From Escherichia phage a20: 64,000 bases of DNA. Shown piece after piece: positions 3,279-50,352 of the stretch (positions are counted from its first letter, which is position 1; the number at the start of each line of letters is the position of its first letter). The stretch lies in the sequence record OQ067374.1; one strand, written 5' to 3'. The position numbers were made by a program, and so were the translations under genes. Under the pieces are notes generated by a model. It saw only the letters and a list, made by a program, of their open reading frames with translations. It was not told the DNA's origin and searched no databases.

Positions 3279-3860
3279 TTATTCACCACAAAAGTTTCGA
3301 ATTTGTTCCCAATTCAGAGAACGAAGATTATTACGAGAGTACTGAATTACTTCAATACCGGCTTGTTTTAGAATGTCTGCCCAATTTTCAGGAGATCGGT
3401 CATATAATTCTGCATATACAACCTTTTTAATACCTGACTGTGTAATAGCTTTAGTGCAATCAGGGCACGGAGAAAGCGTAGTATATAACGTAGCACCTTC
3501 AATAGAATTACCTTTACGAGCTGCAAACAAAATTGCATTCAATTCCGCATGGATTTCGTTATTAGCAGACCATGCACTATGAGCGGCCCGATGTTCTTTA
3601 GCCAAAACAAAATTATCCACCCGTCCAAATGCTGTAGTGCCTTCTTTATGCCCAGCAACGATGACCGGGCTTGGTTTATTCTTCAACCAACCGTTTTCGG
3701 ATGCATGTTCGCAACAGTTTGTACCACCTGAAGGAGAGCCATTATAACCTGTAGAAATAATGCGCCCATCTTTTTCAATGACGGCACCAACTTTCCATGA
3801 ACAACATTTTGATTCTTGAGAAATCAGATATGCAATCTGAAGGTATGTGCTAGCTTTCAT
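3279..3860 (-). CDS. cd: dCMP deaminase
   Basis: 193 aa; zinc-deaminase motifs (CAE, PCxxC) and match to T4 Cd. Confidence 0.9.
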   Translation of the reverse strand: MKASTYLQIAYLISQESKCCSWKVGAVIEKDGRIISTGYNGSPSGGTNCCEHASENGWLKNKPSPVIVAGHKEGTTAFGRVDNFVLAKEHRAAHSAWSANNEIHAELNAILFAARKGNSIEGATLYTTLSPCPDCTKAITQSGIKKVVYAELYDRSPENWADILKQAGIEVIQYSRNNLRSLNWEQIRNFCGE

Positions 3861-4852
3861 TATTGAACCTTATTAATATGAGTTAACAGCTCTTTAGTTT
3901 GTTCCCAACTGATGCACGCATCGGTAACGGAAACGCCATAGGACATATTATCAGAAATTTTTTGATTTCCTTCATGTAGGAATGATTCTATCATAATTCC
4001 TTTGACCAAATCATTAGCTGCTAAATTTTTACCAATACCAATTTGATTGCTATAATGCCCAGCAGCGTTTGCATGGCTACAGTCAACCATTACATAATGA
4101 TTCAGACCTACTGCACTTGCTTTGTTAGAAGCTTCTTGAATATCAGAAGAATGATAGTTCGGGCCGTTGGTCCCGCCACGCAATACGATATGCGTATTCT
4201 GATTACCTTCAGCTTCAACAATGCCTACAGTACCATCGACGTCCATACCCATATACCGATGAGGCCAGGCGGCACTATACATCGCGTCTGTAGCTACTTT
4301 AATAGAACCATTGGTTGCGTTCTTGAAGCCTACGCACATCGGTAGACCTGAAGCAATTTCACGATGTGTCTGACTTTCAGTCGTACGGGCGCCAATAGCA
4401 ACCCATGAGAAAATACCAGAAAGATACTTAATCGTGAATGGGTCTAATACTTCAGTTGCTAATGGAAGTCCCATACGTAGAAGTTTACGACACAATGTTC
4501 GTGCAACTATAAGACCGTGGTTCATATCAAAACTTCCGTCAAGATATGGATCATTTACAAGACCTTTCCAACCTACGGTAGTTCGAGGCTTTTCAAAATA
4601 AACGCGCATCACTAACAGAACATTAGGAAGACGAGTTTGAAGTTCAGCCAAACGTTTGCCGTATTCAACAGCAGCAATAGGGTCATGAATTGAACAAGGA
4701 CCTACAACAATAAGTTTGCGTGGGTCTTCACCGTTCATAATCGAATTAACTTGTTCGCGATGAGAAGCCACTTGTGATGCGTAAGCTTCCGACAAAGGAA
4801 TAATCTCAGCCAGTTCTTTTGGAGAAATAAGTTTTCCGACGACAGGTAACAT
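3860..4852 (-). CDS. class-I DAHP synthase (AroG/AroF/AroH-like)
   Basis: 330 aa; KLIVVGPCSIHDP, KPRTTVGWKGL, GARTTESQ motifs; SD AAGGA; stop overlaps cd start (TAATG). Confidence 0.85.
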   Translation of the reverse strand: MLPVVGKLISPKELAEIIPLSEAYASQVASHREQVNSIMNGEDPRKLIVVGPCSIHDPIAAVEYGKRLAELQTRLPNVLLVMRVYFEKPRTTVGWKGLVNDPYLDGSFDMNHGLIVARTLCRKLLRMGLPLATEVLDPFTIKYLSGIFSWVAIGARTTESQTHREIASGLPMCVGFKNATNGSIKVATDAMYSAAWPHRYMGMDVDGTVGIVEAEGNQNTHIVLRGGTNGPNYHSSDIQEASNKASAVGLNHYVMVDCSHANAAGHYSNQIGIGKNLAANDLVKGIMIESFLHEGNQKISDNMSYGVSVTDACISWEQTKELLTHINKVQ

Positions 4853-7037: not shown

Positions 7038-7336
7038 TATTTTATTCCTAAGAAAGTTTCAAGAATACGAATGTTATGCTCGCGCCGGTCTTTATTAATT
7101 TCAGCAACGTTTTTATTAATTGACGTACTTCTAACGTTTGAAGAAATAAATTTAATCATATGACTTTTGAGTTGTTGCAAATCCAACCCTTTTTCTTTAG
7201 CAGCTTTACGAAGAGCTTTACCTGCTTCATCTAGTGCCTTTGCTGCATCTTTGTCATAATTGACAAGTGACATTCCACGGCAGATATCAATATACTCATC
7301 CGACCGTTTGATGTAATTCTCTAGTAATGTTTTCAT
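7037..7336 (-). CDS. hypothetical protein (pseT.x)
   Basis: 99-aa ORF downstream of promoter 7362..7395. Confidence 0.5.
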
Positions 7337-46945: not shown

Positions 46946-47368
46946 TTATTTAAATTTAATTTTCTGAAGTGCATCAATTGCAGCCAAACGCCCTTGTTCA
47001 CTTTTAACTGTAATGACCACATCGCCTGATACGATCACCGAACCATCAACAAATTCTATAGAGCCTTTTTTGAAATCGACAGCTGTATCTGGTTCCGGAA
47101 CTTCTTCAAAGAATTTAAATTCTGCACCATAAAGCAGAATATCACCTTGCATACTAATGATTGTACGTCCAGGTCCATCGGTTTCAGCGGCAATCATTGA
47201 AACACCATAACCAATCATCTCTTCTACAATAAAATCTCTTGATAATAAAACTGTATGCAGAGTAGTGTTAAGACGTTTACCAGTCGTATTAAGAATTCTC
47301 AAGAAATTATCTTCCTGTCCTTTGATAATACGATATTTCTTACCAACTTCAAAACCTTTAAAAGCCAT
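46946..47368 (-). CDS. hypothetical protein (position of T4 goF)
   Basis: 140-aa ORF immediately upstream of gene 39. Confidence 0.5.
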   Translation of the reverse strand: MAFKGFEVGKKYRIIKGQEDNFLRILNTTGKRLNTTLHTVLLSRDFIVEEMIGYGVSMIAAETDGPGRTIISMQGDILLYGAEFKFFEEVPEPDTAVDFKKGSIEFVDGSVIVSGDVVITVKSEQGRLAAIDALQKIKFK

Positions 47369-47550: not shown

Positions 47551-47963
47551 TATTGTTCCTTAAAGTGAGCTTTCAACATTTGATACAAAGACCATGCCTG
47601 GTCATTATTTTCGATAGTAATAGTCATCACAGGAAATTCAGACAATTCATCAAGTTCACCAGAATCTTGCTCTTCGGACGCTTGATACGGATTTCCAACT
47701 TCGTCAAAGAACTCTGCTTCATTCGTGGAGAGCCAGATAAAGTTTTCATCAAGGATATCACCGCCTGTTGCGTATCCAACCGTGCCAGTAGATGTCACAA
47801 TTTTAGTAGGACGACCAAGATGGTCAACATCTAATACTTTAAATGGTTCCATGCCAAGACGTCGTGCATAAATCCCATTATCAGTGTGGTCTTTAATAAA
47901 CTCTTCTTGGGCACGTTTATCTTTAAATTGGTACCATGAGTTAACGCGGAATTTATTAGCCAT
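47550..47963 (-). CDS. hypothetical protein; start at ATG 47963
   Basis: track ORF starts at TTG; ATG overlaps upstream stop. Confidence 0.5.
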
Positions 47964-48190
47964 TAGTAAGTTTCCTTCCAATAAGTTGTACCGTTTTCAG
48001 TGATTTCACGGAAGATACCATAGATAGGCATTTCATCGCCGAGTTTTTCGTAAACGTAAACCACTTCAGTGTAGCATAAAAATTCGGTCCAGTTTTTCTG
48101 TACAACAACTAAATCAGGATTAAACAGAACATCTTCAAACTCATCGATGTTTGAATCAGTAGTTACGTTTTTAATGATTTGACGTTTCAT
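47963..48190 (-). CDS. hypothetical protein; start moved to ATG 48190
   Basis: track start lies inside the upstream promoter; ATG 48190 has SD AAGAGGAGAA. Confidence 0.5.
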
Positions 48191-48214: not shown

Positions 48215-48250
48215 GTCTATAGTATCATAGACCATAGTTGTTGTACATCA
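48215..48250 (-). promoter_or_regulatory. early promoter, PeSL-like
   Basis: ATGTACAA-N17-TACTAT with inverted repeat GGTCTAT/ATAGACC. Confidence 0.55.
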
Positions 48251-48772
48251 TTTTAGCAAAATAAAATCAACTTGTTCTGCCAATGAACGTCTAAACATTA
48301 ATTGACAACTTCCGAGGATGAAATCAGGTGCTTCATAGACCGCGATGTAGTATCCTTTAGCTTTCAAGAGTTCAACATCCACCTGGTCATCAAACCATGC
48401 ATAAACCGCGTCAACACTTTCAAATCCAAAATAGAACCCTTGAGCCCAATCTTCACTCAATTCAAATGTGTGCTCAATTCTATAGTATCTTAAGATATTT
48501 TGTTCAAGGAGTTTGTCTTCATTTACTGTAGGACGATTAGGGACATTATAGTTGTCGCCGTGATGGTAGAAGTTACCTGAGAGTATTCCATGCTTATCAA
48601 GGAACTCCCATGTTTCTTCAGAGTTGTCGGTGCCCGACCAACCGTATGGCGAACGAGGTTCTTTATTCCAAGAGGTTTCCCAAATTCTGACGGCTTTACC
48701 GTCTTCGATAGCAATTCCCGGTAATGATTCACGTTGAGTACAAAAACTACGTTCTACGCGGTAAACTAACAT
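48248..48772 (-). CDS. hypothetical protein (motB region)
   Basis: 174-aa ORF with SD AGAGGAGAAT. Confidence 0.5.
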   Translation of the reverse strand: MLVYRVERSFCTQRESLPGIAIEDGKAVRIWETSWNKEPRSPYGWSGTDNSEETWEFLDKHGILSGNFYHHGDNYNVPNRPTVNEDKLLEQNILRYYRIEHTFELSEDWAQGFYFGFESVDAVYAWFDDQVDVELLKAKGYYIAVYEAPDFILGSCQLMFRRSLAEQVDFILLK

Positions 48773-48795
48773 ATTATTCTCCTCTGGTTGATATG

Positions 48796-48829
48796 GTTAT
48801 AATACCAAAACCAGAGGAGAAGTAAACAA
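48796..48829 (-). promoter_or_regulatory. early promoter, PeSL-like
   Basis: GTTTAC ... TATTATAAC with inverted repeat CCTCTGGTT/AACCAGAGG. Confidence 0.5.
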
Positions 48830-48831
48830 CT

Positions 48832-49251
48832 TTATGCGAAAGCAGCTGGGCTATATTTTTTAATTTGGAATTCAGGAACTACCATGAACTGTCCAGCGAA
48901 AACGATGTTATAAAGCTTAACACCATCTTCTACCCAACGGTCGCTAATAAATCCGGCGATTTGCTTAGTTTTCCACGGTGTTCCATCAGTTGCCGCAGCA
49001 ATAGTGAATTCATGGTCTTTTTCAACAGAAACTGATCTGCATAGTCCCCATTTGAACGCTTTTTCTTCTGGTTCAATGAATTGGCTTTTAACGTAACCAA
49101 TGTTACCATCAGCGTCACGAACTTTAACTTCATTACGTCCAAAAACCGGATCGCTCACAGAAAGAACTTCAACCAACTTCCCGGCAACTTTAGAGCGAGA
49201 AGCAACAGATACATATACGTAATCACCTGTAGAGAGATTTACAATATTCAT
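48832..49251 (-). CDS. paralogous family protein A
   Basis: 139 aa; shares N-terminal ASRSK-AG-LVEV and C-terminal DRWVEDGVKLYNIVFAG with the next two ORFs. Confidence 0.6.
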   Translation of the reverse strand: MNIVNLSTGDYVYVSVASRSKVAGKLVEVLSVSDPVFGRNEVKVRDADGNIGYVKSQFIEPEEKAFKWGLCRSVSVEKDHEFTIAAATDGTPWKTKQIAGFISDRWVEDGVKLYNIVFAGQFMVVPEFQIKKYSPAAFA

Positions 49252-49260
49252 AATAATTCC

Positions 49261-49734
49261 TTAAGCTTTACGAGGAGACACATAGCGAGTGATTTCAGAT
49301 TCTTTAACAACTCGGAAGTCACCTAAGAATACGATATTGTATAACTTTTCACCATCTTCAACCCATTGGTCACTAATGAAGCCACACATAGTATCAGTTT
49401 TGCTTGGATAACCGTATTCGTCGATGAAATCAAATTCTTTATCAGTCTGGAATTCAACACCTTTACACAAGGCCCATTTGAACTGTACATTAGGCTCTGT
49501 GGATTCAACTTTTTCTCTTGAAGCAAGAGCACCACTCACAGGAGTTTCCAAAAATTTAGGACTTACGTAAGCGTACTGAGTTTCAGTTTTTCCAGAACTA
49601 GGAATGATTCGAACTTTAACTTCTTTAACACGACCAGTACCATTAGTACGAAGTCCTACCACTTCAACTAGACGACCTGCAGCTTTAGAACGAGATGCAG
49701 ACGATACACGCTTAATTTCACCAATAGTAATCAT
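49261..49734 (-). CDS. paralogous family protein B
   Basis: 157 aa; C-terminal FISDQWVEDGEKLYNIVFLGDFRVV. Confidence 0.6.
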   Translation of the reverse strand: MITIGEIKRVSSASRSKAAGRLVEVVGLRTNGTGRVKEVKVRIIPSSGKTETQYAYVSPKFLETPVSGALASREKVESTEPNVQFKWALCKGVEFQTDKEFDFIDEYGYPSKTDTMCGFISDQWVEDGEKLYNIVFLGDFRVVKESEITRYVSPRKA

Positions 49735-49758
49735 AATTTCTCTCTTTGTTTAAATTGA

Positions 49759-49793
49759 ATTCACTATACTCCATCCATCCTTGGATGTACAAC
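49759..49793 (-). promoter_or_regulatory. early promoter, PeSL-like
   Basis: TTGTAC ... AGTATAGTG. Confidence 0.5.
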
Positions 49794-49794
49794 A

Positions 49795-50289
49795 TTAATT
49801 AAGGATATTAACCACAGCACTACGTGGAACTACACTAAAATCACCTGCATGAACAACGTTCAGAAGTTCAACACCATTTTCAATCCATTGGTCAGTTACC
49901 CATCCATTTACTGGACCGGCGAACGGTCGACGAATTGAAACATATTTACACAACAAATCAGTAGGCTCAATAGGCTTAATCAGAGTACCGTACATACAAG
50001 CGATATCCATATCAATACAGATGTCTTTAACGGGTTCTACTTCTTCAATCAACAGTTCAAAGTCGGTGCTTGGAAGGGCGGTAGTAGAAATTGTACCGTA
50101 TGAATTTTTAATTTCTAAGAATAACCAAGGGCCTTCAGCTTGTTTGATAAAGTTAACAATAGTGAAACTATTACCTTGAGTGGCACCTAAAATTTCACAA
50201 AACTTTTCATAAGCTCGCACTGAAGCACCGTACCAGTTGATTTGTTTTTCGTCTTTCAGGATGTAAGTAGCCGTAGTATTGATATTCAT
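49795..50289 (-). CDS. paralogous family protein C
   Basis: 164 aa; C-terminal WVTDQWIENGVELLNVVHAGDFSVV. Confidence 0.55.
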   Translation of the reverse strand: MNINTTATYILKDEKQINWYGASVRAYEKFCEILGATQGNSFTIVNFIKQAEGPWLFLEIKNSYGTISTTALPSTDFELLIEEVEPVKDICIDMDIACMYGTLIKPIEPTDLLCKYVSIRRPFAGPVNGWVTDQWIENGVELLNVVHAGDFSVVPRSAVVNILN

Positions 50290-50317
50290 AATGTTTTTCC
50301 TGTTTGGTTAAGATAGA

Positions 50318-50352
50318 AAGATTATACTCCAACCATCCTTGGTTGTAAACTG
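50318..50352 (-). promoter_or_regulatory. early promoter, PeSL-like
   Basis: GTTTAC ... AGTATAATC. Confidence 0.5.

What the first reader, a model, noticed from the sequence alone, without database searches (positions are those of the whole stretch)
48832..50289. Tandem trio of paralogous genes upstream of dexA
Three consecutive ORFs of 139, 157 and 164 aa share a conserved C-terminal module (G-F/W-I/V-S/T-D-x-W-V/I-E-D/N-G-x-x-L-x-N-I/V-V-x-x-G-D/Q-F-x-V-V). The first two also share an N-terminal motif (ASRSK-AG-LVEV). The N-terminal halves have diverged strongly and the block has two internal early promoters. This pattern fits duplication followed by diversification of a targeting domain on a constant module.
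Basis: seen in the sequence. Interest (0 to 1): 0.5.

Follow-up and report, generated by a model that had tools for sequence, protein, structure and literature searches.

The report
Known motB.1–motB–motB-like phage gene trio
The three similar genes are real, but they are the already described motB.1, motB and second-motB early genes of an RB69-like T-even phage, which share a small C-terminal domain; the finding is ordinary, although it exposed a one-base error in the T4 reference genome that truncates MotB.1.

Summary
Three consecutive minus-strand ORFs of 164, 157 and 139 aa share a C-terminal module (BLASTP E 1e-9 to 1e-30; family profiles 98% probability). All three pass Pfam's threshold for PF17613 (motB). 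The window is a Mosigvirus (RB69/JS09-like, about 97% identical to phage mobillu). The genes are motB.1, motB and the "similar to motB" ORF010c named in RB69's 2003 annotation.

Patterson-West et al. 2021 already reported that MotB and MotB.1 share a CTD on different NTDs, proposed a duplication, and noted that RB69 has two motB copies. The finding is therefore already known.

Corrections: the trio lies downstream of dexA in transcription, not upstream. Only one promoter-like site is internal; one heads the block and one follows it.

Additions from this work:
- The module is acidic to neutral, while MotB's NTD is basic.
- All three genes are under purifying selection (dN/dS 0.09–0.29).

Side finding: the T4 reference (NC_000866.4/AF158101.6) alone carries an extra G that truncates MotB.1 from 143 to 119 aa. 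RB69's 29-aa "ORF012c" is a similar frame-break remnant.

The parts
50321..50349 (-). Sigma-70/T4-early-type promoter-like site (G-TTTACA-17 nt-TATAAT) in the dexA-motB.1 intergenic region; it heads the block
   Evidence: 11 of 12 consensus matches, the best in the 5.7-kb scan; sequence read; conserved in RB69 and mobillu (A2). Consensus match only; activity was not tested.
49795..50289 (-). motB.1-type gene, 164 aa: an acidic protein (pI 4.6) with an N-terminal beta-barrel domain (residues 1-83), a disordered linker (86-108) and the shared C-terminal module
   Evidence: phrog_2333 E 8e-82 and Pfam PF17613 at 33 bits against a cutoff of 25; 37% identity, E 5e-27, to T4 MotB.1; AF2 model pLDDT 78.7; dN/dS 0.16-0.29; charge.
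49804..49956 (-). Shared C-terminal module in the 164-aa protein (residues 112-162)
   Evidence: hhalign boundaries; pLDDT about 90 with strand order beta-beta-beta-beta-3_10-beta.
49763..49791 (-). Second promoter-like site (TGTACA-17 nt-TATAGT) between motB.1 and motB; part of a 66-nt promoter/5'UTR repeat (49724-49789 vs 50282-50347, 71% identical)
   Evidence: spacer CCAAGGATGG(T/A)TGGAGTATA shared with the first promoter.
49261..49734 (-). motB orthologue, 157 aa: basic KOW/SH3-like NTD (residues 1-63, pI 10.4, net +7), disordered linker (66-81), CTD (85-151)
   Evidence: Pfam PF17613 E 1.7e-41 and phrog_1671 E 5.6e-67; 91% identical to RB69 MotB and about 48% to T4 MotB; 100% identical to the phage a20 protein P0121; AF2 pLDDT 80.9; charge; dN/dS 0.25-0.29.
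49282..49473 (-). Shared C-terminal module in MotB (residues 88-151; it carries a 13-residue hairpin insertion relative to MotB.1)
   Evidence: hhalign; DSSP of the model.
48832..49251 (-). Second, shorter motB copy, 139 aa (orthologue of RB69ORF010c 'similar to motB'); it starts 9 nt after the motB stop, with its own Shine-Dalgarno sequence (AAGGA) and no promoter, so it is probably co-transcribed with motB
   Evidence: 97% identical to RB69ORF010c; E 2e-26 to T4 MotB; Pfam PF17613 at 77 bits; orthologues at >=80% identity in 207 of 761 phage records; dN/dS 0.09-0.12.
48853..49047 (-). Shared C-terminal module in the 139-aa copy (residues 69-133)
   Evidence: Mapped from alignments A1 and onto the hhalign boundaries.
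48248..48826 (-). Context only: promoter-like site (48826-48799) and motB.2 orthologue (174 aa). It is not a member of the paralogous family
   Evidence: 34% identity, E 2e-16, to T4 MotB.2; no PF17613 hit.

Best explanation
The block is the motB.1 - motB - second-motB early-gene cluster of a Mosigvirus (RB69/JS09-like T-even coliphage). It lies between dexA and motB.2/cef and is transcribed leftward, probably by host sigma-70 RNA polymerase from T4-early-type promoters (one ahead of motB.1, one ahead of motB, with the second copy co-transcribed). All three proteins are small, with two beta-barrel domains joined by a disordered linker. They share one ~50-residue C-terminal barrel (Pfam PF17613), predicted here to be SH3/Tudor/KOW-like. 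MotB and its short copy carry a KOW-like N-terminal barrel. The MotB.1-type protein carries a different (LSm/SH3-like) N-terminal barrel. For function I extrapolate from T4 MotB (48% identical): an abundant early protein that binds DNA without sequence specificity, reshapes H-NS-DNA complexes, de-represses part of the H-NS regulon and doubles burst size. My mechanistic inference, at about 40% confidence, has three parts. (1) DNA binding resides in MotB's basic N-terminal barrel. (2) The constant, acidic-to-neutral C-terminal barrel is a protein-protein module, used either for self- or hetero-association of the paralogues or for docking on a common partner at the nucleoid. (3) The paralogues therefore bring different N-terminal activities to the same place. 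Shown here: homology, gene order, promoter consensus, predicted folds, charge and purifying selection. Inferred: every functional statement.
Confidence: 0.85

Rival explanations
1. This is the published 2021 model. The shared C-terminal module is a cold-shock-like OB fold and is the nucleic-acid-binding domain. All three paralogues would bind DNA or RNA through it, and the variable N-terminal domains would supply partner or regulatory specificity.
For: HHpred-based assignment in PMC7827196, with closest hits in the aIF5A structures 1BKB and 2EIF. The module is the most conserved part of the family (A3 and A4), as expected for a catalytic or binding core. T4 MotB's CTD is mildly basic (pI 7.9).
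Confidence: 0.2
2. This is an arms-race reading. The paralogues are host-range or anti-silencing accessory genes, each tuned to a different nucleoid-associated protein or xenogeneic silencer (H-NS, StpA, Hha, prophage- or plasmid-borne H-NS paralogues). Duplication and N-terminal swapping would then be driven by host variation.
For: T4 MotB co-purifies with both H-NS and StpA and de-represses H-NS-regulated and prophage genes. Copy number and N-terminal architecture vary between closely related phages, and chimeric copies exist (P0156, P0213 and P0055). RB3 combines a T4-like motB.1 (dN 0.42) with a Mosigvirus-like motB pair (dN 0.076). The locus lies in a dispensable early region.
Against: No direct MotB-H-NS contact could be shown without DNA. 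dN/dS values indicate purifying, not diversifying, selection over whole genes. No functional data exist for any paralogue other than T4 MotB.
Confidence: 0.2
3. This is a redundancy or decay reading. Only motB is functional. The 139-aa copy and the motB.1-type gene are duplicates drifting towards loss, as the frame-broken motB.1 in the T4 and RB69 reference sequences might suggest.
For: The 139-aa copy has lost the linker and the net positive charge of the NTD. T4 delta-motB.1 has no phenotype under laboratory conditions. The T4 and RB69 reference records show broken motB.1 frames.
Against: All three ORFs are intact here. dN/dS is lowest for the 139-aa copy (0.09-0.12) and 0.16-0.29 for motB.1. 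The 139-aa copy is conserved at >=80% identity in 207 records. The T4 break is unique to the reference record: 13 other T4, RB55 and RB59 records among the 25 listed lack it, and the intact 143-aa protein is seen on 256 contigs.
Confidence: 0.03

Closest known systems
T4 MotB (gene motB, 'modifier of transcription'; Pfam PF17613; Patterson-West et al. 2018 and 2021)
   Same: The 157-aa protein is its orthologue: about 48% identity over the full length, the same two-domain plan, the same position next to motB.1, and a basic NTD with the SRSKAAG-LVEV motif. The 139-aa protein is a full-length paralogue (E 2e-26).
   Different: This phage has two tandem motB-type genes instead of one. The second copy lacks most of the linker and the net positive charge of the NTD. 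The CTD is predicted here to be SH3/Tudor-like rather than the published OB fold. No functional data exist for these copies.
T4 MotB.1 / RB69 MotB.1 (phrog_2333; 'Category 2' of Patterson-West 2021; LSm-like family of Kim et al. 2025)
   Same: The 164-aa protein matches T4 MotB.1 over both the NTD and the CTD (37% identity, E 5e-27). It lies immediately 5' of motB and is an acidic protein.
   Different: It is about 20 residues longer than the true T4 protein (143 aa), because its linker contains an extra conserved motif (D-M-D-I-A-C-M-Y-G-T-L-I-K-P). Unlike the T4 reference (119 aa) and RB69 reference (132 + 29 aa) annotations, the gene is intact here and shows the complete module.
RB69 locus dexA - motB.1 - ORF012c - motB - ORF010c - motB.2 - cef (AY303349, 2003)
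   Same: Same gene order and content. ORF010c is 97% identical to the 139-aa protein and MotB is 91% identical to the 157-aa protein.
   Different: The RB69 record has two single-base insertions in motB.1 that split it into a 132-aa product and the 29-aa ORF012c. The window and mobillu have one 164-aa ORF (A2).
SH3-like small beta-barrels (Tudor, PWWP, chromo, and the KOW domains of NusG/Spt5)
   Different: There is no sequence-level membership: no Pfam KOW or Tudor hit, and only 5-19% identity in the structural alignments. No aromatic cage or KOW signature was examined. The resemblance is of fold only.

Membership tests
Pfam PF17613 (motB, modifier of transcription) | Whole-protein score above the curated gathering cutoff (25 bits) | tested here: met
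   Scores of 142.2 bits (157 aa), 77.2 bits (139 aa) and 33.0 bits (164 aa, C-terminal part only). Every homologue found carries the precomputed PF17613 hit.
MotB orthologue group (T4 motB / phrog_1671) | Full-length similarity that includes the KOW-like N-terminal domain with the SRSK-AG-LVEV motif | tested here: met
   157 aa: phrog_1671 E 5.6e-67; 91% identical to RB69 MotB and about 48% to T4 MotB. 139 aa: phrog_1671 E 1.3e-51; E 2e-26 to T4 MotB. The 164-aa protein does not meet this feature; it matches in the CTD only.
MotB orthologue group (T4 motB / phrog_1671) | Conserved position in the dexA-cef early region, adjacent to motB.1 | tested here: met
   Gene order compared with T4, RB69, RB3, mobillu, NicPhage and phiC120.
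MotB orthologue group (T4 motB / phrog_1671) | Non-specific DNA binding, co-purification with H-NS/StpA, and toxicity on expression | not testable with these tools
   Known only for T4 MotB. Supported here only by the basic NTD (pI 10.4).
MotB.1 group (phrog_2333) | MotB.1-type N-terminal domain plus the EDGVELLNVVH-type C-terminal module, encoded immediately 5' of motB | tested here: met
   phrog_2333 E 8.3e-82; E 5e-27 to T4 MotB.1 over residues 3-136; alignment A3; synteny.
LSm-like fold family of Tevenvirinae (GoF, MotB.1, Frd.2; Kim et al. 2025) | N-terminal bent five-stranded antiparallel beta-sheet (LSm/SH3-like) | tested here: inconclusive
OB fold, cold-shock DNA-binding-like (SCOPe b.40.4.5), as proposed for the MotB CTD | Five-stranded OB barrel, typically with a helix between strands 3 and 4, and structural similarity to CspA or the aIF5A C-domain | tested here: not met
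T4 early (sigma-70) promoters | Strong -35 (G)TTTAC(A) and -10 TATAAT hexamers with 17-nt spacing, upstream of an early gene | tested here: inconclusive
   Site 50349-50321 matches 11/12 and site 49791-49763 matches 9/12. Both are conserved in relatives. No transcript data exist, and the total number of hits in the region is not above the shuffled expectation.

The most novel reading that the evidence does not exclude
The constant C-terminal barrel is not a DNA-binding OB fold. It is an SH3/Tudor-like protein-interaction module through which MotB, the second MotB copy and MotB.1 co-assemble, or dock on one common partner, at the host nucleoid. The trio would then work as one multi-component nucleoid-remodelling system. 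As a corollary, all published work on T4 MotB.1 (119 aa, 13.8 kDa, synthesised from NC_000866.4) used a protein that lacks the last 28 residues of this module. Its reported lack of activity and the AF3 models would then not describe the natural 143-aa protein.
Probability: 0.25. Interest if true: 0.45.

Novelty: already known. Interest (0 to 1): 0.2.

Why it matters
The finding adds nothing new as it stands. The paralogy, the shared CTD with different NTDs, the duplication hypothesis and the extra motB copy in RB69-like phages were already annotated in 2003 and published in 2021.

Three practical points came out of the check:
1. The intact 164-aa gene in this window, together with re-sequenced T4 genomes, shows that the T4 reference MotB.1 (UniProt P39415, 119 aa) is truncated by a single extra G found only in the reference record. 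It also shows that RB69's 29-aa "Category 3" peptide is a frame-break remnant. This affects how the 2025 MotB.1 experiments should be read.
2. Structure prediction favours an SH3/Tudor-like barrel over the published OB fold for the shared module.
3. Charge partition points to the N-terminal KOW-like barrel, not the shared module, as MotB's DNA-binding part. This gives a simple domain-dissection experiment.

Tried and rejected
- A sequence search of the PDB with MotB found nothing meaningful (best E 0.32, to an unrelated Rap phosphatase).
- Chance similarity was rejected.
- Pseudogene or decay status of the extra copies was rejected by dN/dS and conservation.
- I considered a programmed frameshift in T4 motB.1. 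I rejected it because the extra G occurs only in AF158101.6/NC_000866.4 and in none of the other T4, RB55 or RB59 records listed.
- A deep profile search of 1.84 billion representatives looked for the module fused to enzymatic or other informative domains. It found only 26 clusters, all short proteins of 43-251 aa, so it gave no functional clue from domain context.
- The Foldseek search against viral models returned mostly family members, plus weak two-barrel phage proteins that were not informative.
- The nearby GoF-like pair (143 and 140 aa) is not significantly similar by BLASTP (E 0.038), although both hit phrog_622.
- Several loci fetched by accession or in parallel calls were not visible to the Python sandbox. 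The dN/dS analysis therefore used only RB3 and mobillu.

Full report
**1. What is there**

All genes in this part of the window are on the minus strand. In transcription order they are:
- dda (52356-51043)
- dexA (51033-50356)
- a 164-aa ORF (50289-49795)
- a 157-aa ORF (49734-49261)
- a 139-aa ORF (49251-48832)
- a 174-aa ORF (48772-48248)
- cef, goF, 39.2, a goF-like ORF and the fused gp60+39 topoisomerase subunit

The finding's coordinates match the three ORFs exactly. The trio lies downstream of dexA in the direction of transcription, not upstream.

**2. Is the similarity real?**

Yes.
- The 139 and 157 aa proteins align over their full length (42% identity, E 1e-30).
- The 164-aa protein matches both only in its last ~40-80 residues (E 6e-10 and 1e-9).
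- Profile-profile comparison of alignments of the two families gives 98.2% probability, E 5e-14, over 51 columns. MotB residues 88-151 align to 164-aa protein residues 112-162, with a 13-residue hairpin insertion in MotB.
- At the DNA level, a 23-nt segment encoding DQW(V/I)E(D/N)G recurs in all three genes. A 66-nt promoter/5'-UTR segment is duplicated ahead of the first two genes.

**3. What the genes are**

All three proteins exceed the gathering threshold of Pfam PF17613 "motB, modifier of transcription" (142, 77 and 33 bits against a cutoff of 25). The PHROG search puts the 157 and 139 aa proteins in the MotB-like family phrog_1671 and the 164-aa protein in phrog_2333.

The DNA is 96-98% identical to many Mosigvirus genomes such as mobillu, PhAPEC2, p000v and the O157 typing phages. 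The MotB protein is 100% identical to that of phage a20.

Comparison with reference annotations gives the following assignments:

| Window ORF | Assignment | Evidence |
|---|---|---|
| 157 aa | MotB | 91% to RB69 MotB, about 48% to T4 MotB |
| 139 aa | RB69ORF010c "similar to motB" | 97% identical |
| 164 aa | MotB.1 | 37% identity, E 5e-27, to T4 MotB.1 |
| 174 aa | MotB.2, unrelated to the family | |

**4. Prior knowledge**

Patterson-West et al. 2021 (PMC7827196) state the following:
- One gene may have arisen by duplication of the other.
- The homologues fall into categories that differ in their NTD.
- RB69 has two motB copies, one motB.1 and a 29-aa peptide.

The 2018 paper (PMC6070864) shows that T4 MotB is toxic, binds modified and unmodified DNA non-specifically, co-purifies with H-NS and StpA, and doubles burst size. 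Kim et al. 2025 (PMC12152347) assign the MotB.1 NTD to an LSm/SH3-like family together with GoF and Frd.2.

The observation and its interpretation are therefore already in the literature.

**5. Expression signals**

- The best sigma-70 match in the region is G-TTTACA-17-TATAAT at 50349-50321, ahead of motB.1.
- A weaker site, TGTACA-17-TATAGT at 49791-49763, precedes motB and shares its spacer sequence with the first.
- The 139-aa gene starts 9 nt after the motB stop, with its own Shine-Dalgarno sequence and no promoter.
- A further site at 48826-48799 precedes motB.2.

So one promoter heads the block, one is internal and one follows it. These are consensus matches only, and the total count in the region is not above the shuffled expectation.

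**6. Structure**

AlphaFold2 models were built from alignments of 26-28 homologues.
- The 164-aa protein model has pLDDT 78.7. Its domains are residues 1-83 and 116-163, and its linker (86-108) is disordered.
- The MotB model has pLDDT 80.9. Its domains are residues 1-63 and 85-151, and its linker (66-81) is disordered.
- The shared module is modelled at pLDDT about 90 as four or five strands with a 3_10 turn before the last strand, which is SH3-like topology.

**7. Charge and selection**

- MotB's NTD is strongly basic (pI 10.4, net +7), while its CTD is acidic (pI 4.7).
- The MotB.1-type protein is acidic throughout (pI 4.6).
- The 139-aa copy is about neutral.
- dN/dS against RB3 and mobillu is 0.29/0.16 for motB.1, 0.29/0.25 for motB and 0.12/0.09 for the second copy.

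All three genes are therefore maintained by purifying selection.

**8. Distribution**

- The second motB copy has orthologues at >=80% identity in 207 of 761 phage records that encode a MotB-type protein. The other 554 records give <60%, where only motB proper is hit.
- The second copy occurs in Mosigvirus and also in the Tequatrovirus RB3, which keeps the T4 position of motB.2.
- The MotB.1-type module occurs on proteins of 143-145, 164-169, 179-183 and 245-252 aa, and behind KOW-like NTDs.
- The whole family is small. A profile search of 1.84 billion representative proteins found only 26 clusters at 50% identity, all of them short proteins.

**9. Most likely mechanism**

This section is inference. 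Host RNA polymerase transcribes the block immediately after infection. MotB coats DNA through its basic KOW-like barrel and remodels H-NS-DNA complexes, as shown for T4 MotB.

The conserved, non-basic C-terminal barrel is more likely a protein-protein module. It could mediate self- or hetero-association, or docking on a shared partner. Through it the second copy and the acidic MotB.1-type protein would act at the same site with different N-terminal activities. I give the identity of the genes about 0.85-0.9 confidence and this mechanistic partition about 0.4.

The rivals are:
- the published model in which the CTD is a DNA-binding OB fold
- an arms-race model in which each paralogue targets a different nucleoid protein
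- simple redundancy or decay, which the selection data disfavour

**10. Side finding**

The T4 reference (NC_000866.4 = AF158101.6) reads GGATTGGAAGATGG, where T4 "wild" (KJ477684), clone OL964745 and this window read GGATTGAAGATGG or its equivalent (A5). The extra G ends MotB.1 at 119 aa (...DQWIGRWR*). It leaves the rest of the module, EDGVELLNVVHAGEYSVVPRSAVVAILN, as an overlapping 29-aa ORF.

A 61-nt query centred on the site is 100% identical only to the two reference records. Of the 25 records listed, 13 others align with a one-base gap: 11 T4 records (including T4T, KJ477684-6, MT984581, OL964735/45 and OZ209023/57) plus RB55 and RB59. The repaired 143-aa protein is identical to P0010, which is seen on 256 contigs.

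UniProt P39415 carries the 119-aa, 13.8-kDa form. Kim et al. 2025 quote 13.8 kDa and had the gene synthesised, with NC_000866.4 as their stated T4 reference sequence. By inference, their MotB.1 lacked the last 28 residues of the conserved module.

RB69's record likewise has two single-base insertions relative to this window and to mobillu. They produce the 132-aa MotB.1 and the 29-aa ORF012c, the "Category 3" peptide of the 2021 paper (A2).

**11. Verdict**

Novelty is "already known" and interest is low (0.2). The residual value lies in three points: the correction to the T4 and RB69 motB.1 gene models, the SH3-like rather than OB prediction for the module, and the testable proposal that the module is an interaction domain rather than a DNA-binding domain.

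Noticed in passing
L002 (NC_000866.4) 3719-3815, i.e. about record position 7,305; compare window 49870-49890: The T4 reference genome (AF158101.6/NC_000866.4) carries one extra G in motB.1 (GGATTGGAAGATGG). This truncates the protein to 119 aa (UniProt P39415, 13.8 kDa). Among the 25 records listed, 11 other T4 records plus RB55 and RB59 lack the G, and they encode a 143-aa protein (P0010, seen on 256 contigs). Published MotB.1 constructs were synthesised with NC_000866.4 as the stated reference and so probably lack the last 28 residues of the conserved module.
   Followed up: yes
L003 (RB69 AY303349) 3377-3873, against window 49795-50289: RB69's record has two one-base insertions relative to this window and to mobillu. 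They split an otherwise 164-aa motB.1 into a 132-aa product and the 29-aa ORF012c. That ORF is the 'Category 3' peptide of Patterson-West 2021, so it is a frame-break remnant (a sequencing error or a strain mutation), not a separate small gene.
   Followed up: yes
window 49972-50016 (residues 92-106 of the 164-aa protein); P0029-P0051, P0055, P0218-P0222: A conserved short motif, D-(M/F/T)-D-(I/V)-(A/L)-(C/S)-(M/A)-Y-x-(T/C)-(L/P)-(I/V)-K-P, lies in the disordered linker just before the C-terminal module. In the 180- and 250-aa family members the same motif sits at or near the N-terminus. T4 MotB.1 lacks it. It looks like a short linear interaction motif, or a trace of past gene fusions.
   Followed up: partly
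window 46949-47368 (-) and 47553-47981 (-): This is a second possible paralogous pair in the same early region. GoF (143 aa) and the RB69ORF005c-like protein (140 aa) both hit phrog_622 (E 2e-39 and 2e-19). They are not significantly similar by direct BLASTP (E 0.038).
   Followed up: partly
L006 (RB3 KM606994) 294-2220: RB3, a Tequatrovirus, is mosaic at this locus. It has T4-type gene order (motB.2 next to dexA) and a T4-like motB.1 (dN 0.42 against the window), but a Mosigvirus-like motB plus second copy (dN 0.076). This indicates recombination within the cluster. Chimeric MotB proteins (P0156, P0213) point the same way.
   Followed up: partly
P0227 (43 aa, metagenomic): This protein joins the N-terminus of MotB.2 (MKIYRVESSFSIL.YED) directly to the tail of the MotB.1 module (GVELLNVVHAGDFSVVPRSAVVAILN). 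It is evidently an in-frame deletion that removed most of motB.2 and motB.1 in some T4-like phage.
   Followed up: no
L001 (mobillu) 3962-4480, against window 49261-49734: In mobillu and many database entries motB is annotated as 165-175 aa, with an N-terminal extension (MEYNEFNLNKERE...) that reads through the promoter-like element. In this window that extension is not in frame and the ORF is 157 aa. The long forms are probably start-codon mis-annotations.
   Followed up: no
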